A stretch of DNA of 64,000 bases from Raillietiella orientalis (GCA_036172245.1 JAYWIR010000088.1:186001-250000); one strand, 5' to 3'; counted from the first letter of the stretch, positions 21,291 to 47,490 are shown. Notes: generated from the letters alone by a model not told the origin. Numbers and translations are program-made.

Positions 21291-24200
21291 AAATCCTCTT
21301 GGGTTCTTCTGTTTTCCCTGCTTTCCTTCCATCTTTTTTTTTCCTACTACGCAAAGTGGCGAAGAACCGCTCGGCCTCATTAAAAAGAGTTCACAAAGCT
21401 CTTTGATACTGCCCACGCCACTCCTGGGTGCGCGTGACTCTTCAAGCAAGGAGGTACTGCACTCTGGAAGGGGACCACCCTATGAAATCAGGAAGGACTC
21501 CGCAGGAAAGAGTCCGTTTTCTAACGCTTGGAGGAAAACCCCGAAGGAAACTCTCGCCTTGGTTGCCACCGGAAGGAATCCGCAGGAGAAGAGCTCCTTG
21601 TTTGCTCCTCTAAGGAAAAACTCTGAAAGGGCCCGTCATTCAGTCGGCATTGGTGTGATTGTGACCAGATTCTGTTGGCAGCTCGTCACGAGCTTTGTGG
21701 AATCAGTAAAAAAAAAAAGAAAAGTGGAGATTTCTCTGTGCTGTTTCGCTGCTCCTCTATCAGGGTAGGCATGCTGTTAATGATCGCTGCACCTTCACCG
21801 AAGTCCTTCTTCTGTTGCTAGCGAAGGATGCAGAGATGTGCAGCTCGAAAGACAGGGTGCGAACATCTGAGGAAGCTGAGTTTGTGAATGGAAGGGAAGG
21901 ACTTTGGCTCATGCGCTCATGTCGCGGGGTTTAGGTGAGTCCCTGTTTACGAGGAGATTCAGCGTGCTCCACGTGTCCTTCGCCGCAACCACCTAGACGG
22001 AGCGCCTCTTCCTGAAACCCATCTTGAAATTCATCGTCATTGTGTCATTCGTTTACATAGCTTCCTCTTTATTACGACGGAGAGGATTTCGATGGCTGTG
22101 AGAAAAAAAAAGAGGGGAGCTGTAGACTGAACGAATGGTTGCTGAGCCTCTGTGTTTCACATATTTTATGCGTGGTGAGGTCGTCCTCGTATTGGAATCT
22201 AGACTTGCAAATTTTGTTTAAATCGCTGACATCTCAAGCAATTTTCTCCATTTGGTTTCCCTATGATGCAATAGGTATCTATGCTTACCACTACAGCCGC
22301 ATTTATCATGTTGTCAATACTTTGTTCCGTGAATAATCAATGAATTTATTACTCATAATTTCATCTAATCAACATGAGCTCCAGCCGTTAATATCAAGTA
22401 CCACTTCGATCATCGTCGAGATCACATCCTATTGCCTAGATGCACCTTCCAGAGCGCCCACTCTGTTTCAAGGATTTGGAAGCGAGCAACGGGCGATTCG
22501 CCCGCAGTGATTATGGCCTAAAACTCGCCATTCTCAAATAATTTGCTGTATAATCTTGGTTCAATGCAAAATTACATTCACATGTTCGAATTGAGCACAT
22601 TGTGGTTTATCACACCGATTCTCATAAATGCACCTTGATCAGGAAAGTGCTTTCAGCAAAATTGTGGAAATAAAGATGAGCAGAGTTCTCTTGGTCCATC
22701 AACTATGGAAGCAGACTTCCATTAATAGTCTTAATTACTGCCGAATCATCAGCATTCCTTTCATACCCTTTGTCTGTACCAGGGCACCTAATTGGGTTTT
22801 GCGAAAATAGCCCGTTTTTCATGGGTTTAGCAAAAGTTTCTAACAGTCATCAATCATGTCCAAAATGAGATCCGGAATTTTATGTAATACAATTTCGATT
22901 TGCATTTTCATACATATCGAGTCATACAAACAGTCTCGAAACTCAAATGGAAAATGCTTGCTTGTCTTTGCTAATTATTCGTAAATCCTAAATTTATCGC
23001 ATATGTTTCCGTCCCATAGTGAACAGCATCATACAGGAATCCGTCCCTTCTGCATGTCTTATTAATAAACTTGCTCCCTTGTAGGCTTTCATAACAAATT
23101 TCAAGCGAATCTAAATTTAGAGAGCAAGCTTCAACGCTTCTATCCTGTGGTAACCCTGGGTTGATTTGCTTTTTATCCTTCTTTAGTCCAGTATCACTAA
23201 ACCTACTACTGCTCCATTTGCTTTCTTATTAATTAATATACGTAAGAATTTAAAAGTGGTCATGCATCTATGGATTTATGATATTATTAAAGAGATGAAT
23301 TTTTACACCATTCTGGCTAATTCTTACCTTCTATGGAATACGTTTATTAATCCTCCAAGTGCTGACAGTGTTCTCAATTCGAAGGATACCTGCATTTTTA
23401 TTTCTGATTATAATCACGAATATTGTGTAAACTGTCAAGCGCAGTGTTAACACGTTTCACCAACAATTAATGAATTAAATGTATTTATGCAATCAAAAGT
23501 TTGAAAAGCTCAGAATATTTTTCCATCATCGGAATATGATACAACTGCTTCCATCGGATAGCTATAGTTATACCTTATTTGCAGTGGTATTTGTTTTACC
23601 ATCCCAAGTGAATTTTATAGTCTGTTTAGTGTTTTGCATCTTCCATTGACATTTTTGGTTTTCAGCGGACTTTTTGCTATCAGGAATTTCGTCCCAAGCT
23701 TCACTCATGTTAAGATTCCGTGTTGATTTGGTTCTCCTTCAGGTCAGGCCATGCTGTGCTGACTTTTACTCGCAGCAGAGAAAACTGGAAAAGAGTTTTC
23801 TTTCCGTGAACCCGAGGTCTTTCGGGTTTCGTTTGCATCGTCTCCATCACTGCTCTGCTTTGCCAGCGGTGAAGCTCAGATCGGTGGGCTGGAGATGACC
23901 AGCGCCTGCAGCTACTGGAGATTCGGGCTTCCTCACAGCGCGGCTGCCTTCGATCTCGCTGCTCACAGAAGCCCAAATGGAACTTTCCAGAATGATTGCC
24001 CGCGTAGAGAGTTCCAGCTTGGCGTACATTTTCCAAGGGTTTGCTTGCCGAAAAAAGAACGTTTTGACTGTTTCCAAAGCATGCGTATTTTTTTTTGGAC
24101 GGAAGATCACCTTTGACAAAGGAAGAGAGGTGCTTCCCTTCAGTACCGCAAAGCGTTCCGTTTCACTTTGTACGCTTTTCCGTTTCCGGTAGGTGCGGGA

Positions 24201-27066
24201 CGTCCAGCGGAGCACCCAGAAAACTCGGGCAGGCAAAGGTCTGTGGACGCGGCCACTGGCCAGTTCCACTCTGCACGGGTGTGAAAGTGCATCTTCATGA
24301 CTCCTGGGCACCGAAACCCTGCGCGGGTGGAAAATTCCGGAGCCTCCCGCGCGGGGCTTCGGATGCTGCTGCCTAGGAAACCGCTCGATTCGCCACCCCT
24401 TTAGATGCAGCCTCTCAGCAGTGCCCGAGGGAAGCGCGGGAAGCCGGAGCTTTCCGAGGTCGTCGGCCTCTTGAGTGCACAGTGAGTCTGTGGAAACAGA
24501 AAAGTGCGTGTGCAAGCTCTCTGCATCCGACCAGTCCGGGAGAAGAACAATATGGTAAGTCTGATTTTGTATGTTTGATAGAAAATGGTCAAATCTGGAA
24601 AGTACTAGTGGACTTTCATTACAGAAATACTTAATGCAAATATGTTGAAAGACGGTAGTGAATAAATGCTTCTCTTATAAATATTTCTAATCATAGTCAT
24701 GTAGCTCATGTCATGTTGTCTAGCAGTAGCGCAAAGTTGTTAAAAATGCCAAGCTGCTTATGTGTAGATTTTGTTATTAAAATTATTTCCATACTACGCT
24801 TATCATACTTGGTGAACTACGTTTCTTATGGTCTTCAGAAATCTAACTGTAAAGATTGCTTCAACTGGTAGAATATGAGATAGTGCTTTTATCCTTGAAT
24901 TATAAACTACAGCTTTCCAAGAATCTCCCCAAGATGCTCACATGGTAATTCAGTTGTAGCTCATATCGCAGATCCTATAGCTGACAATGTTGCGATGTGT
25001 TCCTTTTGATTTCAAAGCAGTTTCATTGTACTCCAAAACTTTTTTTACGTACAACTTTTGAAATACCCATTTCTGTAGAAATCAATGTACTTTGAAATGA
25101 AGTCATGATTAAGAATTGTACACTGTTTCTAAGAGCAGTGCTTCGGTGTTTCACTTTGGAGCCATATTTTAATTTGTGTGTTTATTAGTTTGTATGTTTA
25201 TGAGTTCATGGATCGTTAAAGTATCAGGTAATTGAGTTTGTCTGCAACTGCTGTACCTTGAAACTCAATAACCTGCTCAAGTACTACTGTACTTTTATGA
25301 AGTTTTATAATAAAGGCCTCAGGTGTGTGTAGCTAAAGGCTTTATCCTAGTTTATATTTATCATCATTTGTAGGAGTAGTAATTGTGAATCAATGTCCTC
25401 TATATAGTTTATGATGCTTGAAATTATCATCATATTTGGATACTGATTTTGTGAAGCTTCAGTTAAAATTGCAAACCTATAATTGTTTTTGTTGTTAATG
25501 CAAGAATAACATGAATGCAAATCAGTGCACAACTCAATATAGTGAATGGTAATGGGTGCTGACAACTTTTATTTTTTAAAACATGTGGCATATGGTGGAA
25601 ATTCCATCAAGCCCTGCTGCTACCACTCACTGGTCCATTGAGGCTACTTTGATTGCCGCAAGTAGTAATGGCACATTCTGTGTGGGGCCATTGTTTGTGC
25701 AGTTTCTTGTCAGTATGCTGCAAGTTTTCTAGATTGTGTCAAACAGATTCAGTCATGAGCTGTGTTTTATAGCATGAATCATTTACCAATATGAAGTAGC
25801 AATCTGCATTAGTTCATTTAATACCATTACTTATGTCTCCAACAGACTTCTACCAAATGCGTCACAAGAAATGCGAGTATGGCTTCTGTTTATCCAATTT
25901 GGTTTTTCAGTGTCCTGCTTTCGCCTCTTTCTCAGGGTTCGCACGAGTGGTATTAATTTGTATGTCTCCTAAGACTGATATTGCTCTTTTCTTCCAGTTT
26001 TGTGTAGCTGTTTGGCAGCCTTGCCTCAGTTCATTCCAGCATTGGTTTTAGGAAGCTAGTATCTGGTGTGTCATTGTCCAACAGAAGTAGCCAGTTTAAC
26101 ATATCTCCCTTACATGTTCAAAAGTTAATGCAGCCTCCCCAGATGTTGGAACTCTTTGTATATGAAATGGAATTGTGCACCCATATTGATCCACAAATGT
26201 GTGCTTGCTAGGGTTACTTGATTATTCGAGTGTTATCCTCAAGCAAATACTCATACATGCATTTGTGCACTCTTGCACTCCCATCTATGTGATGCTCTTG
26301 TATGTTGCCAAGATATGCCACACAGCCCCAGAAATGGCATTGAAGTTACTGCCAAAGATGTGCATGGTTGGGAGACCATCCCTGGCTTGTTCCTGTCTAC
26401 TCACAGTGTCAGACTATTCCATGGTCTGTGAGGTCCTCTGTACAGCCTGCAGTATTGTATTTTTGTAGTCACTTCCTTGGTAGTTCTCTACAACTTGGTC
26501 AAGAATTTGCTGACTGTGCACTCACTTTTAGATCCATACTTGATAGTGGGAATCGAATATACCTTCAGAAAATGTGCATCTTTGATGTTGGTTGTCATTT
26601 TTCTTGATTGTTCTCTCCTGGAGATAACATGGCATGATGGCAGTCGTTTCCAAAGCGTTCCAGGCTTTTGTCATACAGAATTCCTTGCTAGTATACTATA
26701 AGAGACACTATATTAAAATCTTGTGTACCACACTCCAGAAAAGCCCACCACACTCTGATGGTTTGTTTTTCACCAAACACTCTTCAATGATTCAGTGCAT
26801 TCCTCCGTGCCTGCGCAAACTGCATCGAGCAAAGTACCTGATTTTCTTTCGGCGTATATCCGGAGAACATTTCAGCTAGAGATGATCGCAAATAACTTGC
26901 AATGTTTGCCTCCGTCATGTGAGCGGATCGAGGTGTAGATTCCTATTTTATTTGCATATTATACACGTTAGAAAACAGTTACTATGGTTCCAGACTACAA
27001 GGCGGAAAATTTGACCTCATTCTTCTTTTCCGTATCATCTGCTTTTTATGTCCACTGCTGCTGTAC

Positions 27067-27985
27067 CTAGAATCGCGAGCTCCTGTAAGTGGAGTAGGGT
27101 CGCAGAGACTGTTGGAGTGGATGTCCAGGTCGATGGTTGTCCATCTGTTTCTGGAAGTCTGGCTCCCAGATGGCGAGAACTATGACATGTGGAGTGTCAT
27201 AGTACTTAATGGAGTCCTGATATTTTGGATCAAATATTATGCCATTTTTTAAGGATTCAATGTATCCGTATTGGGCGAGTTCCTTTGCATCTCTTGTAAG
27301 TGCAGCTGTGTATGTAAATTGCTTTTCTTGGTAGGAAAAGGAATTTTGCGAATGTGGTTTTTCCGTCGTTTCCTTTGGAGTCTTTAACCCAGTAGGTGTT
27401 TCCTGGATGTGGAGGCTTTCTGAGGATGCCAATGATGTCCATCTGCCATTGGTGTAGACGAAGTGATGCCATTGAGTTCGGTGCTGAGTCATTGCGGTAC
27501 ACAGGAAGCACAAGTTAATGTTTTTTCAATAAAACTTGGTGTAACCACACCAAGTTTGATGATGTATTTCTCAGTGTGCCCAGACCGAATAAGTTGGAGT
27601 ATCTAGAGGAAATGAAGTTTGAATGGTGTGGAGGTGTGTACCTTCTTTTCGTAGTTTTCTTCATTTGGGTTGTTATTGAGTGCTCCGAAGGCCCATGGAT
27701 GTTTGTCTTGCTTGGAACAGTAGAGCACGTTTGAGGAAGCGCATCTTTTTGCGTGTTCCAGGTGGCATGTTGTGAGTGGCGGACGTCGTTGTTGGATGAG
27801 AGTCCTACCTCTTTTTCTAGCTGTTACCTTCAGTATCTGAGTGAGAATTTCAGTTAGCAGCCACTCAGCGGTGTGGTATTCCTTGTCAGACTTACTTTGA
27901 CGATGATCGAAAACGCAAAGTTGATTATGTTTCAAGATTATTTTTCCTCTGACAATGGAACACCATGGTTTTCATTCTGCAGTGA
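27067..27985 (-). pseudogene. rep: Endogenous CRESS-DNA virus Rep remnant 1 (HUH endonuclease + SF3 helicase)
   Basis: Frameshifted motifs in order: PWCSI (motif I-like), QGIPHR* (motif II-like), CHLEHAK..NVLYCSKQDKHPWAFG (motif III), YWVKDSKGNDGKTTFAKFL (Walker A), YGYIESLKNGIIFDPKY, TPHVIVLAIWEPDF. Confidence 0.88.
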
Positions 27986-28936
27986 TCTGGCATCTGATCA
28001 CATGCAAGACTGAGCTCCAAACATTGTGATGCTAGGCAGTCAAGTGTAGAGTTTGGTTTGCTGTTTTCCAATGACCACTTAGAGCTTGTCTGGCGAATTA
28101 CCTTCCCAGTACATCAAGTTTTTAAAGCACTGGACAATTTCATGCTTTAAGATTCTAAGGTAATGCGCTCTAGGGCAGATTTGTATAGGATCTTGTATAG
28201 GGCGAACTACGTGATCTGAGCATTCTTCTTTGTCCTTGTCATCTCAAAGTTTTACTAGTTTTACTGTTTATGCCATCCTGAAGATATTCTGGGAACTAGA
28301 TCCACTGATTTATATGATCCTGAGATGCTGGTCTTATGGTCGACGACCGCAACATACTTGTGCTTCGAAATTTTTTGTCTTGCCAGGTACTCTTTGGTAT
28401 AGTTATTGCCTGTGGTGCTACCCTTTGCTGGTCTTGAAGTCATTGTAATCATTTGGATAACACGCTTGCTTACAAGGAAGGACTCTGTTTCTGGGTCTAG
28501 TCAATGCCGAGTGCTCATTTGAGATGGTCAGCTTGCAGGCGCAAGCCAACTTTGCGGGAATCATGTTGAGATTTCTCATGCTTACGTTTGGTTATGTAGT
28601 TGAGTATCAAAATTGTACTTCGGGTAGTGGGAACCCTAGATGGTTACCCCGCTAAATAGTCATGTGTCAGTTAGGGTGGTGTTTCTAAAACGTGGAGTTC
28701 ATCTGCTTGTTTTCATATTGTGCAGAGCATTGAATTTAGGGTTTTGGGTAGTTGGCTAATGTGTAACGACATAGTTGCAAATTCGGTTATTGAGTGGTTC
28801 TTGGAAAAAACGCTGTGCTGCTATGTAATGCATCTTTTATGCATTCTCTTTGTACGTTGCCCTCTGTTGTTATTCCTTGTCTATCGAGGGCTCTGAATGG
28901 CAATCGTCTGTGATAGAACGTTAATCAGTTAGTATT

Positions 28937-29530
28937 TCATCGATGTTCACACTGTATGAGTGGACGTTGTGGTAGACATGCTAGGATGATGAGTTGTGTT
29001 CCACCTGATGTGCTTGCGTTCATCGCAGAAGCATTGTTTGGGCTTTGTGAACACCGTACTGAATGGCCTTGCGTTCCACACTTGTTGCATTTTCCCGGAA
29101 GACACGCCGCCATTCTGTATAATGTACCTGCAGCGCCCGTAGAAGTCGGGAAATTTTTTTTTTTTACTCTGACGCGTTGCAATTGGCGTCTGATTTACCT
29201 GCCAATGTGCTCAGGTACAAAATCGCCTACTTTGTACTGGGGTGCGGGTTTGTGCCCATTTATGACGTTGGTCCGTAACTCCAGTGAGTGGCACCGCTCC
29301 TAATGCTGTCATCACGGTAACGAAGTCGCCGAAACTTTTCGCTGGTCGCGGGAATTGGAAGTGGAGGCAGTCTTGATTTCTGCCACAGAAATGGCGGGCA
29401 CGATGTCTTCAATAACCTCCATGTCAATTGGGGCGTTGCCGTTAAATAAACACGTACAGCACCCACAAGAATCACAACCTTTAAGCGGGGACGGTGAGCG
29501 TAGGAGAAACATGTCCCTCCGTTGAAGTTT
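28937..29530 (-). mobile_element. Retrotransposon 5'UTR and decayed ORF1 remnant
   Basis: GGACATG 5' motif at 29510-29516, MEVIEDIVP start similar to other ORF1s, and a CNKCGTQGH zinc knuckle. Confidence 0.65.
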
Positions 29531-31372
29531 TTTCACCCGGTCACGCCGAGGCGTTTATTGTGTAAACCAGTTCGGAACGCAGTTCCCAACTGAATATAAA
29601 AGAAGTTGAAGGGGATACTCCACCGGCACGGAGGTCGGGACAACCAAAAGTACTGAACGGGGGAGGGCAACGGGCACAACAGAAAAATAAATATGGTGGT
29701 AGCAATCCTCGAGTCCGCTCCTTTTGCACCAGGATTAGCAAGAAAACACATCGGGAAACTTACAGAGTGAACGGGAATAGGGTATGAGAAAAACGAATAA
29801 AAGGAGATACGGGACAAGCGTCACGGTATACGATATTCCTATTTTCAATCCGGCATTAGATGCCGGTAATGTTCAGAACTTGTAAGAGCTGACGGTACCT
29901 TAGAGAATTAATAAAGGCGGCCTCTATCGAAATGACCTCATCGCTGGCTGATGGTGTTGAGCACTTCACAGGCCATACCAATGTCACGGCTGAAACCCAT
30001 GGTTGCGAGGATTGCGCTCATCGAGTCTCCTTCCGGCGCGATGACCAGCCGTGGCACCTCTCCTGCGGTGTCCAGGTGCAGGAGTGCTGCTGCCAGGCTC
30101 CGCCACAGTACCTCGAGGGCACCCCAGTACAAAAGCGGATGTGGGATCCAATCTTCGTTCCCCACCCGGCACAGTCCGAGGATGACATCCCTAAGATAAT
30201 GCCGTTTAGCTGCTCCTTGAGCTGCAATCTCCAGTGGAAGACACGTTGCACGTCTTCTGATGCGTGCAAGCACTGAAGTGTTCACTCCAAGAGGAGAAAC
30301 CACAAGGTCTGCAGGGGTAACACTCAATAGTTCGCTTAATCGAAGGGGTGCTGTAGCCACAGCATGCGGAGTGGCAACATCCACCATCTAGCACGTATTT
30401 CAATGCAAGATAGTTTTTGTTATTCCTGCAATGGTGCAGGAAAACTCACTTCTGCGTTGGGCTACTCTCGTCTTTCTCCCTGAGGCCACACCGCTGCGTG
30501 AAGGGATGTGGCGGCCACAGTGGACCACTTCGCCGTGTCTTGCATCTCCACTTTCTGTGGTCATTGCAGCAGACTCTGAAGGGAGTGACGATCTTCAGTG
30601 CTGATTCCTTAGAATGCAGCTCAAGACTTAGTAGTCTCTTGCCGCCAAGCTTTCAAGTTTATTGGTTTGCAGAAGATACTTAGTTGGCTTTCTACTAGGG
30701 AGGCGACTTGCCTCATGGTGAAGCCGAATCGCCGCATCCTGTTGTGAGTGTCCGGCACCAGCTAGAAGGGTCCTTCGCTCTCGGCGCATCTCCGCAAGAT
30801 GACACGTAGAGGCGCACACTTCGGGGAAGTCTACAGCTTGCCACAGAGTGCCATCACTCGGAACTGCACTTGCTACTCGATTCCGATCCAGCGTCTGGAT
30901 GCCTAAGGCGGCATCTGGTAGCGCTGTCTCCAATTCTTTGAGACATCCTGGACCTCACAGGTACATTTAGAGCGTTCCTCAACTGGCGTTGATCCTGGAG
31001 CTTTGCCTCTCAAGAGGGCAGGCGAATTAGAAACGGAGCGTAGGAGGGACGGAACGAAGGTGTTCCAAACTGCCTCTCGTTCCGGCAGGTTTAACTTGTC
31101 ATGGAAGAACGGACCGGCAGAGAAGTCACCCTTCTGCAGTCTTTGCCCCGCAAGTCGGCGAGTGCTCCCCTGAGGAACTTTCAGCTTTTTTTTTTTTGCC
31201 GGACAAGTAACCGAGTTGCGTTTTCGTGGGTTTTGTGAAAATAAATGCCTTGAGGTAATGCAGTGAATAGCCTCTTGAAGGCAGTCCTACCGGGCTTCGG
31301 CAATACGCAAGATGCACAAAGGAACGCCAAGATGGATGAAATACTTGTCTGTCGCTATTTCCTGGAGGGTGC
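29531..31372 (-). mobile_element. L1/Tx1-like 3' portion (post-RT region, zinc finger, 3'UTR, 3' terminus)
   Basis: FIHLGVPL near 31330; ORF 29938..30387 C-terminal block; AATAAA-hairpin end at 29531-29559. Confidence 0.8.
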
Positions 31373-31374
31373 AG

Positions 31375-32410
31375 TTTTTCACCCGGGTGAGCCGGGGCTT
31401 CTATCATTAAAATTTTTCACAATACAATAAATTTCATAATAAAGTCTTGAGTTTTTCGTTTTTCTGCTTGTTTTTCAGTCGGGACATATCGCCGACTGTC
31501 TTGAGGCACTTGTCCTTACCGACCCGAAGGCCTATAAGGTCGTCCACACTGGCGAAGGAGCGGGAAAAACAAAAATAAAACAAAAAAAAAGAAAACGCCT
31601 GGGGGTAATGTTCTTCGGGAGGGGGAGGAAGGGAAGGGATCACGGCATGCCGTGAGGAGGCCTCTGCATCCGGTCACGGATGCGGACGAGTGCCTGTAAA
31701 TGCTTTCGAAGTCGGCGCCAACGGCAGGCCTTCTCTAAGGAGATGGCTGCCCAGTGGATGGCATTCCGACTGGTATGTCCTCTCCTTGACGCGGTCCACT
31801 TGTCCAGTATTCCGCGTATGCAACAGAGCACTGCTAGACATCCAAAAGCTGGCAAGGCGTCCCGCATCAGGAGTCGAAAGATGTTTTTCGAGTCGCCCCG
31901 CGGAATGTTCAAGATCGACGAGAGTCGGTCCCACATATCACGAAGGGCAACGCACTCTAGGATCAAGTGAGGGAAGGTCTCTCTTTCCTCACAGTCTGTA
32001 CAATTAGCATCCACACTCCCCGATGTCCAGTGAGACAAGCGCGCTCTGCTTAAAAGTCCCCAATGGAGCAGAAGCAACGCCGTCTCCTGCCACTGCAGGG
32101 GAAGGGTGCCGTTGTCCCAAGACGCCGGGGGCCACTTCACCTCCTCCGGAGGTAGTTCGAGCAGCGCGCCCCAGCCTAAAAGTCCATTCGGCGGGACACT
32201 CGGGGTACTAGCGTCCGCTAGTTCCCTGGACGTCCACGCCTTGAATAATTTTTTCCTGCCTCCGATGAGGCAGGACACTTCCCACGATGCCTCCTGCTGG
32301 CTGTCCCGAACTTCCCTGAGGGAGGGCAGCACTGTGGCAAGGGGGGTGAAGGAGGCCCACAGAAGCTTCCGTGGGTTGCGGACGATCTCCTGCAGTGGCT
32401 GACCAGCGTG
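31375..32410 (-). mobile_element. 5'-truncated L1/Tx1-like copy (ORF2 C-terminus and 3' end)
   Basis: ORF 31640..32332 has GLLGWGALL..LLLLHWG..CTDCEERETFPHLILEC. Terminal hairpin CCCGGCTCACCCGGGTGAAAAA. Confidence 0.88.
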
Positions 32411-32806
32411 ACTGCCTCTACGGAGGCAGTTGTACCTCTTTTCGCAGGACTATCAAACTAATGTTTATCTCAAAGGGATGAAGAATAGCAGGGAAAGCGT
32501 CTTGCATAATCCCAGACGCTTCTCATGTTTGGATCTGTTCTCGTCTGAGTTCAACGACTCCATCCAAGCATATTCACCGTGTTTGCCTGGGGCACGTTGT
32601 TCAACTAAGTTGGGACGCAGCGCTTGTGGAAGATCCCAATCTGTTATGTTTGGGTCGTTCGATCTGATCTTCTATAGTGACTAAGAACCTTGAATGCAGC
32701 AAGATCCGGTGACGGGTACGATTCGTAGTGGACATGGTTCGGTGCCCCTTGCACTCCACCATGTGATGTCTCTTGGGGCATTACGGAGTGATTCCACTCA
32801 ACGAGT

Positions 32807-33505
32807 TTGCCACTCTGGTCAATCACATCTCCTAAACCTCATAGGATTGGTTCGTGGATGTTTGGTTATATTGAGGATTATGAATCTGTAAATGAATTGT
32901 TGAAGAGTTTGAATTTGGAACAATACGCGCGTTATTATCGTTACGTGAAGATAAAAGGATGTGCTACGAAGGTGGAGCCATTGTCTCTGGGTTTAACGAT
33001 AGGCAACATGGCGGAAGAGTTTGGAATGAAAGTGTCGTATAGGAATACGATTTTGTATCAGGGCATTGCGCATGGAGAGCATTTTGGAGGGATGGCAGGT
33101 CACCATTACAGTACAGTGGTGAATCGTATTAGTGCTCATGAGAAAACGTCTGGTTGTTTTGCGCGTTAATTTGTGGTGATGGGTGTGCGAGTTTACTCGG
33201 AGGCTTACTTGGTGAAGAAGGTGAATGTGGATGGCGTGGTGTTAGATAGATATTGGAAGTGCCCTTGGATTGATTGTGCACGAGGAAGTGGTTTGGATCC
33301 TGAAACGAATGCAAATGTTGGTTTTTCTTTTATGCATATAATGAAGCATATGTCTGGTGTGGAAATTCCAGATGGATTGGAAGTAGGATGCCAGGGTGGT
33401 GTTTGTCCTAAAAACGGTCAAATGCAGAAGGGTTATCAGATTTATAAAATAACGAGAAAGTATTATGTATTGTTCAAACATCTGAGAGATGTTGGGCTAT
33501 ACTGA
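32807..33505 (+). pseudogene. Endogenous CRESS-DNA virus capsid-like gene (one internal stop at 33167-33169)
   Basis: ORFs 32807..33169 and 33173..33505 are in the same frame. Capsid-like motifs QYARYYRYVKIKGCATKVEP, YWKCPWID and C-terminal YKITRKYYVLFKHLR. Convergent with the adjacent Rep. Confidence 0.7.
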
Positions 33506-34370
33506 ATGTACACATAAATAAAGAGTGAAAATGTTTAATTGGTCTACTTCGTCATATGATGTGGAGAGTGGTGATAAGGTGGAGATGGAGGAAGAAGCAG
33601 GCGAGTCAGGGGCTTCTTCTGGATTAGAACTTGAAGAAGAAGGCCATGGGAGAATGCATATTTCCTCGGAGATCTGCCAGGGAAGTTTTTGCTTTATGTG
33701 TTGAAAGCAATCTTGTGAACGATCCATAGATCAGTAGATAATTTTGCAAAGTCGGGTTGCCAGTCCGCAAAGACGATGATGTGGGGTGGCTGGAAATATT
33801 TTAGACTTCCTTGGTATTTGGAATAAAAAATGATTCCATTTTTTAAAGATTCCATGAAGCTGTATTGCATGTGCCCATGTTATCTTTGGTGAAGTCCACC
33901 ACAATGATGCGTTCTCCGTTGTACAGGTGGGCTGCATTAGCCTTTCTGCAGGAGTGCATGTATATGGCATCTTTTTTTTAAAATAAAAACTTGGCCATCG
34001 TGGTCTTTCCAGTGTTGCCACAGGTATCGTAATACCAGTGGATTTTTCGAGAGCTGGGTGTTCGTCGGATGATGTCCAAGATATCCATCTGCCATTGTTT
34101 TAGTTGAAGGTTTGTTATGGGGTTTGGATGTTGTCTGCTCCTGAAGAGTCGGAAGCATTCTTAAATGAAGTTTATATTTTTGGAGTAAAATTGTGTGTGG
34201 TTTTTCAGGATGTAAAGTTTGTCTGCTCCGTTTTCAATAAGTTCTAGTATCTGGAAGTAGGCGTCCACCGCATATGTAGCTTCCGCTGGTGGTCTTGTTG
34301 ATGCTGGTTGCCTAATGGCATTCTTGGCTGGGAACACCATTTCAAATTTGCTCGCCTGAGCTTCAACCAT
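33497..34370 (-). pseudogene. rep: Endogenous CRESS-DNA virus Rep remnant 2 (SF3 helicase half)
   Basis: RKIHWYYDTCGNTGKTTMAKFLF, IIVVDFTK (Walker B), YSFMESLKNGIIFYSKYQG, PPHIIVFADWQPDFAKLSTDLW; contains stops and frameshifts. Confidence 0.9.
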
Positions 34371-34459
34371 ATATGTTTAAACAAAGTTTAAAAATGGGAA
34401 TCAGCCACCTGTGCAAACAGTTTCTTGCTCCTATTCATGCTCACGCGAGCTCTCCGACA

Positions 34460-35650
34460 AATCAACTACAGGCTGGTCGCTGGGGTTGCGTTTGGTATAA
34501 GGAGTAGCTGGTCGTCCACATTGTCCTCCACGTTCGGTGTGGCTGCATAGGATCTTCGCAGGTAGTCCTGTGCGCTTTAAGTAGGAACTCGAAGAATATG
34601 CTGAAGAGCTGTGGACTTAATAGAACTGTCTGCCTGATAGCCATGAGTATGGGAATACAGTACACGTGGCAGCCGCTTAAAGTAATGCAGGCTAGTGCAT
34701 GGAGCCAGCAGGAGCGCAGGTGGAGTAAGAGTTCCGTTGGGTTACGAAGGCGTTCCAAGAACTCCAAAAGCAGCTGCTGATTGAGGTCGAACGCCTTATG
34801 TAGATCCTACACTTTGATACTACACTTGTGTAGATCGACCGCGACCTCCAAGGCACCCGGCACTCCCTCCTGCCGTCGGCACCTGTTCTTTCCTGCTGCT
34901 GCAACTTTTGCTGCTGCCCGGCTTTGCTGCTCTACGCGCTCCTGCAGCCGCATCCAGGTGTGTTCGAATGGAAAGTTCGCATGCACTGACCGCATGGGGA
35001 CATTGAAAGTCAGGTCAGGTCAAGTGATCTTTTCTAGCTGCACAGCCCATGGCTTGAGAACTTGACGTCCGGGTCCATGAGAGGGATCGGACACCAGTTG
35101 TTTATGTGGCGCAAATGCACCTTCGCTGGGTGGAAGAAGATCGTACTTTCTGCCGTCTGTGGGTTGGCTGTCGTCGTCAGGGTCGATTTTTAACCGGGAG
35201 CACTGGGACGTAGATTGAAATGAATGTAAATTGGAATTTGAAAAAGGTCTTCTCAACATGGTAGGCATGGTGTACCGGACCGCAGCCATTCCGCTGTGAA
35301 TGGACGGAAAATCCTTGAGGGTGCTCTGAAGCCTCCACAGCTCGTGGATCGTGGCAAATTTAGCCTGCTCGTTCCTTATGTCGTAGTCGGAGATTTCCGA
35401 CTTCATGTCGAAAGTCTCCATCACGAAGGAGTCGTACATGGCTGCAGGTAACCTTGCCTCGGATAGACAGTGGGCTGCGCAGCAAGTGGTGCAGAAGATC
35501 CGCGTCCTAGCAGCGCACCTTGAAATAGACCTTGTTCTTAACTGGCATGATGACGAGTTCTTCGTTCCGAATGCCTATGCGGTTTAGTAGATCACTGAAC
35601 TGATCCCGGTCGCTACCGGAAAGAAACTCACCTGGTAACCGAGTGCGCGC
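34460..35650 (-). mobile_element. Decayed RT (34460-34960) and ORF1 (35250-35650) fragments
   Basis: AIRQTVLLSPQLFSIFFE and DLHKAFD (RT). SEISDYDIRNEQAKFATIHELWR..KDFPSIHSG matches ORF1 at 62111. Confidence 0.75.
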
Positions 35651-35727
35651 TTGTAGTCATGGGCTACGTTCTCCCGAAACCCAGCTTTGTCGGGGGGTTC
35701 CCCACTATTAGCTGCTGCTGTGGAAAC

Positions 35728-35855
35728 GTTGCAAAAATTTCGGAGAAATGTTTGCAAAATTTTGCAACATACAAAAGTGAGTGAGTGTAAGTTGCAAAAA
35801 ATTTTTGCAACTTACACTTCCGTCTTCCTCGCCGACGGCGAGGAAGACGGAAGTG
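35728..35855. repeat. Cluster of perfect palindromes
   Basis: TTGCAAAATTTTGCAA (35752-35767); 17-bp arms 35784-35800/35802-35818; 20-bp arms 35815-35834/35836-35855. Confidence 0.95.
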
Positions 35856-35859
35856 AAGG

Positions 35860-37115
35860 TTTTGACTCTGTAACGCCGGGACGTTTATTTCGAGAAACAA
35901 ACTACAAACTTGAAGGGACATGCATCCCTTTGAGACAGAAGAAACTTCTATACAAAAAGTGAAACCGGGAAAACCACCGGCACTCAGGCCGGCTTCAAAA
36001 AAGAATAGAACGGAGGGAAGGGACACGCTAAACAAAAAAAGAAGGGAGGGTGGACACAGGGATCTTTGGTAATGAGCGTTCCTCTTCTACAACTGCCGCT
36101 TGAGGATGGCGATTTTTCTTGGCAGATGAGGCCACCTTGCAGCCCGCCAACCCTCTTAGGTTCTCAAGCTGGCCTTGGGCTATGAAAGCCCGCATTTCTG
36201 TATCCCATATGGTCTTTCGCTGGCCACCACTCCTCAACTGTGAAGTGGGAATGGAGCCTTCCTGTCGCCAGGGACTCTTATTTTGTAAACGCTGACATGT
36301 CTACTTCTCTTCCTCATCGTTGCTTCCATCCTCCCCCGCCAGCGCCTCTTGGTCTCCCGTGGCTGCTTTCTTGCTTCCTTGTCATGCTCGTCGCTTTGCG
36401 AACGGTTCATCTTCCTTGTATGGTGTCTTTTGAAGCAAGCTTTATTGGACAAGTATCGCAGTATTTACTCGTTTGGCATCCCTCATACCTCTACTCTCTT
36501 TTCGAATGGAGATTGATGAATAGTGATGGGGATGGCGAAAAGAAAAGAAAAATACATAATAACATATAGCTTCATAGGATTTGGTTGACATGGAAAGGGA
36601 TGAATGTCTGCTCGAGGTAGTCCTCTGCATCCTTTGCAATTTGCTAGCAAATTCGTCTCTTGTTCTACTATCCAGTTGGAGCCATCTGTTTGTCCTACAT
36701 AAAGACGTGGTGTCTCGGTGAAAAGGAGCGAAGGGAAGGATTTCACTGCTGAAACCGTGGTCAACTTGGCAGTCAGCGGACGCTCCGACCCGAATGTTCC
36801 GCCTAAAGGACTTGTGCGCTGCGGCGAGCTTCTCGGAATCTCTCCAGAGGAGATGAAGTGGCTCCCGGCTTTTTGGGACAGTGGCACCCTCTCGATAAAG
36901 TAGCAAATGTTCTTGGATTGAGTTCTTGATTCTTGGGCTTCCGTCCCGTCTTCTTTGGAGGAGCCTCCGCGGAGGACTCACTTCCGGCATCCGGATCAGG
37001 ATCACCTGCTTCAGGTGCCTAGGCCGCGGCCGGTCTTCTCAAGGCTTTTTGCGCCGGTTTCTCACGGCCGACGAGTTCGGCCGCGAGCTCTTCCGCCGCC
37101 TGTTCGAAGGCAGAA
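35860..37115 (-). mobile_element. Retroelement 3' end (35860-36240) plus rearranged fragments (inverted ORF2 piece 36700-36910; ORF1 C-terminus 36915-37115)
   Basis: AATAAACGTCCCGGCG end at 35860-35889; + strand VPPKGLVRCGELLGISPEEMKW; - strand EELAAELVGREKPAQKALRRP. Confidence 0.8.
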
Positions 37116-37151
37116 GAGTGTACAGTTTAAAGGAACAAGAAATGTGTATTA

Positions 37152-37710
37152 TTAAATATATTCTTTTATTTCATCATTTTGTGCGATAGTAAATTCTGTT
37201 TCCTTTTTAGCGTTGTCATGTATGAAATGTACGATCCATCTGTCACTGCTCGTCTTTTGGTAATTAGGATCCATGTTGGCCATGATGATCATGTGTGGTG
37301 GCTTGAAAAACTTGATGTAGCCTTGGTACTTTGTACAGCATACTATGCCGTTCTTCAATGATTCTATGAGGCTGTAATTGATGTGCTCCTGCACATTTTT
37401 TGTTAGGTCCATTATAATAATTTTTTGCTCATCTAGATGTATGCAGCGTCTGACTTTTTGCAATTTGTCAAGTACATGGCATCATATTCCATAAATATGT
37501 TTTGCCATTGTTGTTTTTCCTGAGTTTCCCTGGTAGTCGTACCAGTGAATGTCTCGTTCGTTGGCTTCGTCCTGAATTATTATGGGTAGTTGCCAATCTT
37601 TCCTTGGATTGGATCAATGTTTTGTGTGGTCAGGCAAATGGAGTCTTGTATAAATTGTTTGTTCTTCGCGTGTATTTCAGGACGATGTTTCGAAATCCAT
37701 TTTTCTTATT
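37152..37710 (-). pseudogene. rep: Endogenous CRESS-DNA virus Rep remnant 3 (SF3 helicase half)
   Basis: RDIHWYDYQGNSGKTTMAK, IIIMDLTK, NYSLIESLKNGIVCCTKYQG, PPHMIIMANMDPNYQKTSSDRW. Confidence 0.9.
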
Positions 37711-38427
37711 CTGCCTTCCAGGGGGCACGTTTTCGTTGGGGGAAGGTATTTCCCGGACTTTCATATCACGCCCTATGCCCTACTCAGCTTACGGCGGGAA
37801 GGGCGGAACCGTCTCCCCGAGGGAGAACTGTGAGCCTTCCCCCATCTTCTCTGTCAGAACCAGCGCCGTTGTTTGCTAGCAGGGATACTTCCCTGTGGAC
37901 CGCTTCGTCATGGCGCGCGGACGTTTGTTCTGGTTCCCGTGTAGAAGGCGCCGCTTCGCCTCAACCTCGACAAAGCGATTCTTTCGCTGTGGGTCTGTGT
38001 ATACCGTTCCCAGCGGCTCTCGCGGCCGCGCGCGTCATCCGACCCGGCAACAGGAACCAACAAGAGCAACCGCGTCGCAGCACGCCAGCATCCCTGCGAC
38101 TTCCCAGTTTATTCCGGTGGCGTGAATTGATTTTGTACTTTCATTTATACAAGAATTGGTCCATGTCACTGGTTTTCACTTTTCGGCTTAGTCTTCGGGC
38201 ATCGTGTCTTAAATTGTATGAGATTTCTCTCGACCATGTTCGCAAGACATCGCGGTAAGTCCAAGTGGGAATCCACAGCTTTTCATCCCAATTTCACTTC
38301 TCACAAATCCTTCGAGAACTTGCACAGCTGACATACCGTTTATTCCGTTCCGCATCTTCTGTCCTCTCATCACGATGCTGACGGTGATGAAGAGGGGGAT
38401 GGTACTGCGCACCATTCGGCTTTATCG

Positions 38428-39230
38428 GTTTGAACCCAGTTGAACCGGGACGTTTATTCGTGAAAACAAACCACAATATTGAAGGGAAATTCATCCCCTC
38501 AAGACACAAGAAACGCCCATGCAAAAAGTTCAGCCTGGAAGGACCACCGGCTCGCAGGCCGGCTTCCAAAAGAAGGGAACGTAGGGAGAGGGGTACAAAA
38601 TAAAACGAAACAGAAAAAAAAAACGGGAGGGTGGGGTCAGGGATCTTTGGCATTAAACGTTCCTCATCTTCGTAGAAGTGCTGTCTGACGTTGGCGACTT
38701 ACCTGGAGACCTTTCTGGGCAGATGAGGCCACCTGACGGCTGCCTTCATAAGGTTCGCGGCTATCCTGGCGGCGTCCATTCGCTGCGAGCTTCCTTGTAG
38801 CTTACGGCGGGCCGTTACTATGGCGCGGATGCAGCAGATTGTTGCGATCACAGCGCCCTTTTCCAGTCCGTCTTCGCTGAAGAAGCGTCGCAGCAGGCCG
38901 ATGGCAGTGTCCTGGGGACGACAAAGTGCCAAAGCAAGTCTTTACAATTCGGCTGTTTTGGGGAACGCCGCTGTTCCCTTCAAACATCCGTACCACGATT
39001 TTTTTTCTTCTTCGTCCGCATACTATCGCAGGTAAGTACGTGCAGTGCGGTTTCCATGAAACCACCGGTCTTGCACATCTCGTCCTGAACGTTGCCTGAC
39101 CAGCGCTTTGATCTCGTGCCGCTCGGCAGTTCCGTGATAAAGCATGAGCAAGTCAATCAGTGTCGGCTGCCAAGTCTCGTCCAGACCGTGGTTCCAACCT
39201 CCATCGGGTTCACCTGGAGACATCCGCAAC
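38428..39230 (-). mobile_element. 5'-truncated L1/Tx1-like copy
   Basis: Terminus AATAAACGTCCCGGTTCAACTGGGTTCAAA; C-terminal LLRRFFSED..ATICCIRAIV; 3'UTR similar to 35860-36070. Confidence 0.85.
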
Positions 39231-45845: not shown

Positions 45846-47490
45846 TTTTTTACCCGGTCACGGCGGGACGTTTATTGATGTAAACGAGCTAGAAACAGTT
45901 GTTTCGAGCCCTCCAGTATGAAGACATGCAGCGGAGATTCACCACTGGCACGCAGGCCGCGAAAACGGAAGAACACGGACGACTGACGGGAGTCCAAAAA
46001 CAATAACAAAACAAAACAAAGAAAAAAATAAAAAAAAAATAAAAAAAAAATTTAAACTGGAGGAGTGGGCCAAGGAACTTTGGGAAACTCAAAGGTTTCA
46101 GTACCAAAACCACTGCGGAGCATAGAGGGAAAAGGATGCGAGAACAAAAAAAATCAATTAAAAATAAAATGAGGGCGGATCACCGGGTTCGTCGTTCTAA
46201 GCCGTTTCTCATCCGGCGATGGATACCGGTTAGCTGCTCCGTTGTGTCTTCCCATAAATGTCGCCACCCAGCTGCCGACCTGATGAAATCTGCTGCCTTC
46301 CTGGTGACACAACATTGCTGTCCAGTGCTCTCCAGCACGTCTCGGACCGTGACGATGGCGCGGATGCAACCAACAGTGGAAATCGTCGCAGCCATCGAAA
46401 GTCGTTGTGGCTGGAAGAACCGTCGCAGCACTTCTCGAGCGGTGTCCCCCGGAAGCGGGAGAGCTGCTGCTAGCCTCCGCCAGAGTTCCTGGAGGGTACC
46501 GCAGTCCATAATAAGGTGCGGGAACGACTCCGTCGCCCTGCACCGGGCATAGTAGGGAGAAGCCACCCCACCGGAAGCTCGGTGGCGCCGCTCGTTGTAG
46601 CGCAAGCCCCAGTGCAAGAAGAGCAAGACGTCTTGCTTCCATGCAAGGGGAAACACCGAACCGTCCAAACACCAAGGAGGGATTGTAAGTTCCTCGGGGG
46701 CAACACCTAGTGCTTCTCCCCACCGAAGTAATCCCTTTAATGTTGCACGCGCACACAGGGGGGAAATCCATTGCTCAGCACACAGTGCGAGCATCCGGAA
46801 CTGCACTTGCGGTCCCATTCTCTCCATCGTAAGGATGCCAAGACCAGCATCCCGACGTGGAGCCGCGAGGTCTTTCAGGCGGATCCTGGATCGCGCCGCA
46901 TCCCTGAGTGCGATCCTTAGCTATCGATTTGACCACTCTCTGGCCGCATAGGGGCTGTCGAAGACAAAAAACAGGGGTCGGAGGAGGGGTGCCACGAAGC
47001 TGTTCTAAATAACCGCCCGTTCCGGCAAGGTAAACTTGCCGTTAATGAACGGGCTGGCGGCCAACTTTGCCCTATGATGGGAGTCCTTCCACGCCTTGGC
47101 CGCGCCGAGATCTACCAGCGGAACTCCAAGGTCCTTGAAATACCCTTCTGTTGGGATCCCCAGGCCGATCCACTCGGACTGCCCCACCCACGACGCGCCC
47201 ACAGGAACGACCACGCTCTTCTTTTTCACGCTCACATGTCCGAGCGTGGGAGTCTCTCGGGCGAGAAGTTCCGCGATTCTCCCGCGCTCATTGCACCCTC
47301 GCTTCCGGAAGCCATCTCCACCCATTCGCCGAGGGGAAGGATGTTCCTTGGCTTTGGGGACTTTCGTCCAGCCTTCTTGCTGGGTGCCGTGGAGATGGAG
47401 GCTGAGCTTCCGGCCTCTACCTCGGGGTGGGAAGTGGCTGACTTCTGAGGGGAAGCCGGACGCCTTACGGCCTTCTTGCCAGCCTTGAAA
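45846..47490 (-). mobile_element. 3' part of an internally deleted copy (ORF1 tail joined to post-RT region, zinc finger, 3' end)
   Basis: KKAVRRPASP (ORF1), then YFKDLGVPL, GLLRWGEAL..ESFPHLIMDC; terminus at 45846-45876. Confidence 0.85.

What the first reader, a model, noticed from the sequence alone, without database searches (positions are those of the whole stretch)
32700..34400. Near-complete ambisense CRESS virus genome fossil (Cap + Rep)
A ~230-codon capsid-like frame with a single internal stop converges on the Rep remnant, and their ends meet at 33497-33505 as in compact ambisense genomes. Having both opposite-strand genes argues for capture of genomic or replicative DNA rather than retrotransposition of one mRNA (inference).
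Basis: partly seen in the sequence, partly recalled or inferred. Interest (0 to 1): 0.8.

Follow-up and report, generated by a model that had tools for sequence, protein, structure and literature searches.

The report
Decayed CRESS virus fragment in host DNA
This is a dead, partial copy of a small circular DNA virus stuck in a repeat-rich eukaryotic genome: its replication gene is certain, its supposed coat-protein gene is a real old gene but cannot be shown to be a coat protein, and such fossils are already a known kind.

Summary
The + frame 32792-33505 has 237 codons and one TAA (33167-33169). It is far more open than chance allows. The converging minus-strand remnant is a true CRESS-DNA virus Rep. 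A profile built from the window's Rep copies finds 144 proteins at E<=0.01, the best at 1e-31, and 92 of the 120 listed carry Pfam Viral_Rep.

The element is not near-complete. Rep homology covers only profile positions 130-310 of 326, so the HUH endonuclease motifs I-II are missing. No nonanucleotide origin was found. The Cap-like frame has no arginine-rich start. Rep homology ends at TAA 33694-33696. The claimed meeting of ends at 33497-33505 depends on an unsupported 77-codon tail in a third frame.

The capsid identity could not be tested. No homologue was found in any search. Circo_capsid scores only at noise level (E 0.15). The AlphaFold model is unusable (pLDDT 31).

Two further Rep fossils lie on the same strand, at 27148-27773 and 37167-37613. 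They diverged from each other under purifying selection, which points to separate integrations.

Verdict: an ordinary endogenous CRESS element with a probable orphan Cap, a new member of a known kind.

The parts
32792..33505 (+). Cap-like frame, 237 codons. It has one in-frame TAA at 33167-33169 and ends in TGA at 33503-33505. No arginine-rich N-terminal arm, so it is probably 5'-truncated at the left edge of the element.
   Evidence: Searches show an open frame far beyond chance, with codon periodicity. Predicted pI is 9.0. Pfam Circo_capsid is sub-threshold at E 0.14-0.22, 12-13 bits against a cut-off of 36.2, on residues 37-64. No homologue was found.
33506..33693 (.). Probable 3' intergenic region between the two stop codons. 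AATAAA lies at 33517-33522 on the + strand, 12 nt after the Cap-like stop. ATTAAA lies on the minus strand at 33539-33534.
   Evidence: signal scan; sequence.
33497..33730 (-). 77-codon open frame in a third frame that ends in TAG at 33497-33499. It is serine- and acidic-rich, low-complexity sequence, and its status is unsupported.
   Evidence: There is no similarity to the C-terminal tail of copy C (shuffle p 0.96). The Rep profile does not reach it.
33697..33879 (-). Rep copy B, C-terminal helicase piece. It holds the ESLKNG block, motif C (IIVFAD), and STDLW in place of the usual S-DRW. The frame ends in TAA at 33694-33696.
   Evidence: One search matches profile positions 250-310 at E 4.4e-24. 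See also the alignment and the stop listing.
33864..34226 (-). Rep copy B, linker plus the N-terminal half of the S3 helicase, with Walker A (GNTGKT) and Walker B (IIVVDF). It carries two in-frame TAA, at 34161-34163 and 33978-33980. One frameshift at about 33864-33879 leads into the next piece.
   Evidence: One search matches profile positions 130-254 at E 7.6e-29.
34227..34376 (-). Upstream continuation of the same frame, 50 codons, which may be the decayed end of the endonuclease domain. There is no significant match. The right edge of the element lies at about 34376-34400, where GC rises and an A-rich stretch (34377-34397) sits.
   Evidence: MAFFT places it near motif III, not significant; no profile match; GC steps.
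27148..27773 (-). Rep fossil, copy A. It spans the motif III region (YCSK at 27693-27722) through the helicase, split over three frames.
   Evidence: One search gives profile 73-113 at E 6e-4, 164-225 at 4.9e-13 and 244-295 at 1.1e-17.
37167..37613 (-). Rep fossil, copy C. It is helicase only and the best preserved, with GNSGKT, IIIMDL, MIIMAN and SSDRW. It has one in-frame TGA inside the homologous part.
   Evidence: One search matches profile 172-324 at E 6.5e-40. See, and (PF00910 at E 0.19).

Best explanation
Window 32792 to about 34380 is a dead endogenous viral element. It derives from DNA of an unclassified CRESS-DNA virus (phylum Cressdnaviricota) that was captured in a retrotransposon-rich eukaryotic chromosome.

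It keeps the 3' parts of two converging genes. On the minus strand it keeps the linker and superfamily-3 helicase of Rep, broken by two stop codons and one frameshift. On the plus strand it keeps a 237-codon viral frame with one stop, which is most probably the capsid gene of a lineage whose Cap has no sequenced relative.

The missing piece is exactly the origin-side segment of such a genome: the HUH endonuclease start of Rep, the origin stem-loop, and the basic N-terminus of Cap. The most likely route (inferred, not shown) is as follows:
1. Double-stranded replicative-form DNA was linearised at or near the origin, where Rep nicks.
2. Both ends were resected.
3. The fragment was joined into the chromosome by illegitimate end-joining.

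The element now does nothing as a virus. Two more Rep fossils on the same strand within 10.5 kb come from separate integrations of related viruses.
For: Rep identity:
- A profile of the window's own Rep pieces finds 144 proteins at E<=0.01 among 7998 scored, the best at 1e-31.
- Of the 120 listed, 92 carry PF02407 Viral_Rep, 5 carry PF00799, 3 carry only PF00910 and 20 carry no domain.
- The names given by sources are CRESS-DNA Rep, crucivirus Rep and Cressdnaviricota.
- A profile of 16 database Reps hits the six-frame window only at copies A, B and C, with one further hit at 1179-1445 scoring -4.6 bits, E 3.4, which is noise.
- Walker A, Walker B, motif C and the S-DRW block align.

The + frame was coding: 0 of 20000 simulations match it, it is 1 of 24121 low-GC windows, and periodicity gives p 1.4e-4.

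Same insertion:
- GC is 0.415 for the Cap-like frame, 0.424 for the gap and 0.416 for Rep. The flanks are 0.478 and 0.495.
- GC steps occur at about 32800 and about 34400.
- The layout is convergent, with AATAAA 12 nt after the + stop.

Host context:
- LINE relics surround the element: RVT_1, zf-RVT and zf-CCHC.
- A low-depth DNA run of the same coded organism holds 32791-32941 and 32983-33163 without a difference.

Separate integrations: among the copies pS is 0.65-1.03 and pN is 0.20-0.41.

Literature:
- Whole CRESS genomes with Rep and Cap integrated are described in Entamoeba and Giardia (PMC7493932, passages read).
- Cap-derived fossils are rarer than Rep-derived ones, and invertebrate Caps may lack any detectable homology (PMC6069186, passages read).
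Against: No evidence of any kind ties the + frame to a capsid fold:
- PDB sequence search found 0 hits.
- The word-indexed search of 5.8 billion proteins found 0.
- HMMER over 1.84 billion representatives found 0 at E<=0.001.
- IMG/VR and metagenome pattern scans found 0.
- phmmer against 469 and then 1465 ORFs of 80 and then 152 viral contigs with related Reps gave best E 0.46 and 0.88.
- hhalign against 13 non-Rep ORF clusters (presumed capsid clusters) gave a best probability of 1.1%. Reversed and shuffled controls gave 0.3-1.1%.
- Pfam Circo_capsid reaches only 12-13 bits, no better than Lipase and SAM_2 on the same protein.
- The low-confidence model shows helices in the N-terminal half, which carries no weight at pLDDT 31.

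No origin, no target-site duplication of 8 nt or more, and no defined junctions were found, so the integration route is inference.

The pS/pN figures rest on 35-67 codons from local alignments, which favour conserved blocks.
Confidence: 0.65

Rival explanations
1. This is a Rep-only fossil. The + frame is a former gene but not a capsid. It could be another small viral ORF, or an orphan host or transposon gene that the virus fragment landed next to.
For: All homology and fold tests for a capsid came back empty or at noise level. The frame lacks the arginine-rich N-terminus usual in CRESS capsids. Neither of the other two Rep fossils in the window has a similar frame beside it.
Against: Base composition is identical to the Rep part and differs from both flanks. 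The position and orientation are exactly those of Cap in an ambisense genome. The length and pI of 9.0 fit small CRESS capsids. A common transposon protein should have found relatives among 1.84 billion representatives. CRESS Caps are often unalignable even between related Reps (PMC7493932, passages read).
Confidence: 0.22
2. The genes are the same, but the route differs. A read-through viral transcript carrying Cap sense followed by Rep antisense was reverse-transcribed and inserted by LINE machinery, with the usual 5' truncation.
For: The window is full of LINE relics. The Cap-like frame is truncated at its 5' end. The right edge carries an A-rich stretch at 34377-34397.
Against: There is no clean poly(A) tail and no target-site duplication of 8 nt or more. 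There is no polyadenylation signal just upstream of the A-rich stretch (read by eye). The AATAAA at 33517 would normally end the Cap transcript 860 nt earlier. The other two Rep fossils have different truncations and no such tail was looked for.
Confidence: 0.1
3. The region is an assembly artefact or contamination. Reads of a free virus were joined into a host contig.
For: Small circular viruses are common contaminants of animal sequencing libraries (general knowledge, not from a call).
Against: Both genes are broken: Rep has two stops and a frameshift, and the + frame has one stop. The element lacks the origin and both gene starts. Three differently truncated Rep fossils lie among LINE relics in one 64-kb stretch. 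No joints were seen when contigs of a DNA run were laid on it, but that run is shallow.
Confidence: 0.02

Closest known systems
Endogenous CRESS-DNA virus elements with both Rep and Cap, as described for Entamoeba and Giardia genomes (Kinsella et al. 2020, PMC7493932; passages read)
   Same: Chromosomal integration of CRESS virus DNA that carries the Rep gene together with the opposite-strand structural gene. The copies decay after integration. The Cap modules are unalignable between related Reps.
   Different: Those are whole genomes that align to known exogenous viruses. Here about the origin-side third is missing, no exogenous relative of the Cap-like frame is known, and the host is a LINE-rich eukaryote of unknown identity.
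Endogenous circoviral elements (CVe) of animal genomes (Dennis et al. 2018, PMC6069186; passages read)
   Same: Rep-derived fossils in animal genomes, many from uncharacterised invertebrate CRESS lineages. Rep fossils far outnumber Cap fossils.
   Different: The nearest named relatives of this Rep are unclassified CRESS viruses and cruciviruses, not Circoviridae. Walker A reads GNTGKT. The Circo_capsid profile is not met.
Free unclassified CRESS-DNA viruses of about 2-3 kb from environmental viromes (IMG/VR contigs L001-L152; 'uncultured marine virus', crucivirus Reps)
   Same: The Rep helicase is 34-43% identical over 118-141 residues for copy C. Short blocks of copy B are up to 58% identical. 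The motifs are the same.
   Different: Those genomes are circular, intact and carry the HUH domain. None of their 1465 ORFs resembles the Cap-like frame.

Membership tests
Cressdnaviricota Rep (HUH endonuclease + S3 helicase) | Significant sequence similarity to Rep proteins that carry Pfam Viral_Rep (PF02407) | tested here: met
   One search found 144 hits at E<=0.01, the best at 1e-31, and 92 of the 120 listed carry PF02407. One search gave copy B E 7.6e-29 and 4.4e-24 against a profile of 16 Reps.
Cressdnaviricota Rep (HUH endonuclease + S3 helicase) | S3 helicase motifs: Walker A, Walker B and motif C | tested here: met
   The alignment shows GNTGKT, IIVVDF and IIVFAD in copy B. The equivalents are present in copy C. 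Pfam RNA_helicase reaches only E 0.19 for copy C and gives nothing for B.
Cressdnaviricota Rep (HUH endonuclease + S3 helicase) | HUH endonuclease motifs I, II and III | tested here: not met
   The profile match of copy B starts at position 130 of 326. Nothing Rep-like was found upstream of 34376. The remnant is therefore a truncated derivative, not a whole Rep. Copy A keeps only the motif III region (YCSK).
CRESS-DNA virus genome | Origin stem-loop with a conserved nonanucleotide (NANTRTTAC type) | tested here: not met
   One search found one pattern match in 26000-38500, at 30325, with a 1-bp stem and not next to any copy.
Circoviridae | Capsid matching Pfam Circo_capsid (PF02443) at its gathering score | tested here: not met
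   The score is 12.2-12.8 bits against a cut-off of 36.2, E 0.14-0.22, on one short stretch. Two unrelated families score the same.
Circoviridae | Rep grouping with circovirus or cyclovirus Reps in a tree | not tested
   No tree was built, because the Rep pieces lie in different frames and were not joined. Named hits are unclassified CRESS viruses and cruciviruses.
Single jelly-roll capsid protein | Eight-stranded jelly-roll fold | tested here: inconclusive
   AlphaFold2 without an alignment gave mean pLDDT 31.0 and pTM 0.17. No fold search was run on that model. The Atlas feature search found nothing usable for either half.
Single jelly-roll capsid protein | Basic, arginine-rich N-terminal arm | tested here: not met
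   No such stretch occurs in any + frame of 32500-32850. This is consistent with 5' truncation, but it is also what a non-capsid would show.
Endogenous viral element | Viral sequence contiguous with host or repeat sequence and disabled by stops or frameshifts | tested here: met
   Flanking LINE relics were found. Lesions are shown. Composition steps mark the edges.
Endogenous viral element | Germline fixation, shown by an orthologous copy in related species or presence in all individuals | not testable with these tools
   No whole genome is held. One shallow DNA run of the same coded organism holds parts of the element.
piRNA-cluster-resident EVE | Small RNAs of 24-30 nt mapping antisense to the viral genes | not testable with these tools
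   No RNA holder was listed. The only data are that the three fossils share one strand and lie among transposon relics.

The most novel reading that the evidence does not exclude
The 27-38 kb stretch is an insertion trap of the piRNA-cluster type. It has captured at least three independent CRESS-DNA virus integrations in one orientation. Copy B preserves the only trace of a capsid lineage with no sequenced relative, from a virus group that infected this host lineage repeatedly.
Probability: 0.15. Interest if true: 0.55.

Novelty: new member of a known kind. Interest (0 to 1): 0.3.

Why it matters
Rep fossils of CRESS-DNA viruses are common. Fossils that keep the structural gene beside Rep are rarer, and they tie an otherwise hostless virus lineage to a host. 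If the 237-codon frame is a capsid, it documents a Cap lineage with no relative among 1.84 billion representative proteins. It would also give a probe for finding the living virus in this host group. Three separately acquired Rep fossils within 10.5 kb show repeated exposure of the germline to related viruses. They also mark a locus worth testing for small-RNA production. None of this changes current understanding. It adds one case.

Tried and rejected
Searches with the Cap-like frame that found nothing:
- PDB sequences.
- The 5.8-billion word-indexed protein set.
- The 1.84-billion representative set by HMMER.
- IMG/VR and metagenome pattern scans.
- phmmer against ORFs of 80 and then 152 related viral contigs.
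- hhalign against 13 clusters of their non-Rep ORFs, which scored no better than reversed and shuffled controls.
- ESM Atlas on each unbroken half.

Other Cap tests:
- The single-sequence AlphaFold2 model was unusable, so no fold search was run.
- Pfam was run on pieces and on shifted boundaries.

Rep searches:
- Single Rep pieces found nothing in Pfam, the PDB or the word-indexed search. Only the profile of the three copies worked.
- Copy C alone found one weak viral contig.

Context and expression:
- The whole genome is not held.
- Cluster-member names were not obtainable because the database is switched off. I therefore could not learn which long contigs (52 kb, 825 kb) hold the related Reps P0009, P0027, P0029 and P0035.
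- Earlier findings of this scan: nothing.
- Sequencing runs: one DNA holder with a small share, and no RNA holder listed. Laying it showed only short contigs and no joints, and uncovered parts say nothing.

Features considered and dropped:
- A fourth Rep scrap left of the Cap-like frame (32546-32584, minus strand). It is a 12-residue match to the ESLKNG block of copy B, shuffle p 0.006. The Rep profile does not see it and there is no DNA similarity.
- The 77-codon tail as Rep C-terminus.
- Target-site duplications.
- A canonical origin.

Full report
**What is there.**
- The + frame 32792-33505 reads 237 codons with one in-frame TAA (33167-33169) and a terminal TGA (33503-33505).
- On the minus strand a Rep-like reading runs from 34376 downwards. 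One frame runs 34376-33846 and carries TAA at 34161-34163 and 33978-33980.
- A shift at about 33864-33879 leads into a second frame, 33879-33697, which ends in TAA at 33694-33696.
- A third frame, 33730-33497, is open for 77 codons and ends in TAG at 33497-33499.
- The window as a whole is eukaryote-like and full of LINE relics: RVT_1 at 49616-50119 and 50163-50894, zf-RVT at 31643-32449, and zf-CCHC at 62105-63499.
- No whole genome is held for it.

**Is the + frame more than chance?** Yes.
- First-order Markov simulations of the segment gave <=1 stop in a fixed frame in 0 of 20000 runs, and in any of six frames in 0.23% of runs.
- Across the real window, 24121 windows of 237 codons with GC below 0.45 were examined in all six frames. 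Only this one has <=1 stop.
- The other five frames of the segment hold 5 to 18 stops.
- Base use differs by codon position: chi2 27, p 1.4e-4, reached by 3.6% of 609 control windows, many of which are themselves transposon coding relics.
- The frame is therefore a former gene.

**Is the minus-strand remnant a Rep?** Single pieces found nothing in Pfam, the PDB or the word-indexed protein search. A self-comparison of the window then showed two more copies on the same strand, near 27.1-27.8 kb and 37.2-37.6 kb.

A profile of the pieces of all three copies (A1) gave a clear result:
- It found 144 proteins at E<=0.01 among 7998 scored, the best at 1e-31.
- Of the 120 listed, 92 carry Pfam Viral_Rep, 5 carry Gemini_AL1, 3 carry RNA_helicase only, and 20 carry no domain.
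- The few names given by sources are CRESS-DNA Rep, crucivirus Rep and Cressdnaviricota.

In the alignment with 19 of these proteins, copy B shows the L-WQ block, Walker A (GNTGKT), Walker B (IIVVDF), the ESLKNG block, motif C (IIVFAD) and STDLW in place of S-DRW.

A profile of 16 database Reps (326 positions) was run over the six-frame window. It matched as follows:
- Copy A: 27148-27773, profile positions 73-295.
- Copy B: 33697-34226, positions 130-310, E 7.6e-29 and 4.4e-24.
- Copy C: 37167-37613, positions 172-324, E 6.5e-40.
- One noise hit at 1179-1445.

**How complete is the element?** It is not near-complete.
- Copy B lacks profile positions 1-129, which hold HUH motifs I and II and most of the endonuclease. 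The 50 codons upstream of 34226 have no significant match.
- No nonanucleotide with a stem lies anywhere in 26000-38500.
- No arginine-rich stretch precedes the + frame.
- GC steps place the edges near 32800 and 34400.
- The element is therefore about 1.6 kb. The missing part is the origin-side segment with both gene starts.
- The 'meeting ends' at 33497-33505 rest on the 77-codon third frame. That frame is low-complexity, is not reached by the profile, and is unlike the tail of copy C (p 0.96).
- The homologous Rep frame ends 10 residues after STDLW, as several database Reps do after their S-DRW. That leaves a 188-nt gap to the Cap-like stop, with AATAAA at 33517 on the + strand and ATTAAA at 33539-33534 on the minus strand.

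**Is the + frame a capsid?** This could not be shown.

Evidence for it is circumstantial:
- It has the same composition as Rep (0.415 against 0.416) and differs from both flanks.
- It has the position and orientation of Cap in an ambisense genome.
- Its length is plausible and its pI is 9.0.
- A polyadenylation signal lies 12 nt after its stop.
- Circo_capsid is the only virus structural family that Pfam lists, always on residues 37-64 against profile positions 68-92 of 224. The score is only 12-13 bits, level with Lipase and SAM_2.

Evidence against it, or simply missing:
- Every homology search was empty.
- The ORFs of 152 viral contigs with related Reps gave best E 0.88 among 1465 ORFs and 0.46 among 469 ORFs.
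- Profile comparison with 13 clusters of their non-Rep ORFs gave a best probability of 1.1%, the same as shuffled controls.
- The AlphaFold2 model without an alignment has mean pLDDT 31, so no fold search was made.
- The Atlas gave nothing usable.

The literature makes such an orphan Cap unsurprising. Cap modules of related CRESS Reps can be unalignable (PMC7493932, passages read). Invertebrate Cap fossils may escape detection for that reason (PMC6069186, passages read).

**The three Rep fossils.**
- Copies A and B are each other's best matches, at 49% over 67 residues and 64% over 42 residues.
- Copy C is no closer to B (52.5% over 59 residues) than database Reps are (up to 57.7% over 52 residues).
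- Between copies, synonymous differences are saturated (pS 0.65-1.03), while non-synonymous differences are 0.20-0.41 over 35-67 codons.
- Most of their divergence therefore happened under selection, that is in replicating viruses. This argues for separate integrations rather than duplication in place. The caveat is that these are short local alignments.
- No flanking similarity links the copies.
- All three lie on the minus strand within 10.5 kb, among transposon relics.

**Mechanism.** What is shown is a disabled, truncated viral DNA fragment inside host repeats. What is inferred is the route of capture. Because the lost segment is the one that surrounds the origin, a replicative-form molecule opened at or near the origin, resected at both ends and joined in by end-joining fits best. 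A LINE-mediated copy of a read-through transcript is a weaker rival. It is suggested only by an A-rich stretch at 34377-34397 and by the 5' truncation. Against it, there is no clean tail and no duplication of 8 nt or more.

**Comparison and novelty.** Endogenous CRESS and circovirus elements are well known, and whole-genome integrations with Rep and Cap have been described in protists (PMC7493932). This is one more case, from an unclassified CRESS lineage, with a probable orphan Cap. The listing shows that EVEs in piRNA clusters are an established topic in arthropods. I saw only titles and the starts of abstracts. Whether this locus is such a cluster cannot be tested here.

**What stays open.**
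- The fold of the + frame.
- The host's identity and the age of the insertion.
- The junction structure.
- Whether relatives on long contigs in the protein hits (P0009, P0027, P0029, P0035) are fossils in related hosts.

Noticed in passing
window 27148-27773 (-): Second CRESS Rep fossil (copy A). It runs from the motif III region (YCSK at 27693-27722) through the helicase, split over three frames. It is closest to copy B, and no Cap-like frame lies beside it.
   Followed up: partly
window 37167-37613 (-): Third CRESS Rep fossil (copy C). It is helicase only and the best preserved, with one stop inside the homologous part. It is as distant from B as free viral Reps are.
   Followed up: partly
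window 32546-32584 (-): A 12-residue match to the ESLKNG block of copy B lies just left of the Cap-like frame (shuffle p 0.006). The Rep profile does not detect it and there is no DNA similarity. It is probably chance or a very old scrap.
   Followed up: yes
window 34377-34397: An A-rich stretch sits exactly at the right edge of the element. It could be a decayed poly(A) tail or only AT-rich viral sequence.
   Followed up: partly
window 35784-35861: A near-perfect palindrome, seen as inverted self-matches of 35 nt at 97% and 53 nt at 91%. Its nature is unknown.
   Followed up: no
window 31643-32449 (-), 46180-46920 (-), 48275-49528 (-), 49616-50894 (-), 62105-63998 (+): Several decayed non-LTR retrotransposon copies (RVT_1, zf-RVT, and zf-CCHC ORF1-like), mostly on the minus strand. 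The region is a repeat graveyard.
   Followed up: partly
window 1-4000 and 22000-30000: AT-rich blocks (GC 0.36-0.45) stand against a 0.50-0.61 background. Copy A lies in the second block, and the rest was not examined for other viral remains.
   Followed up: no
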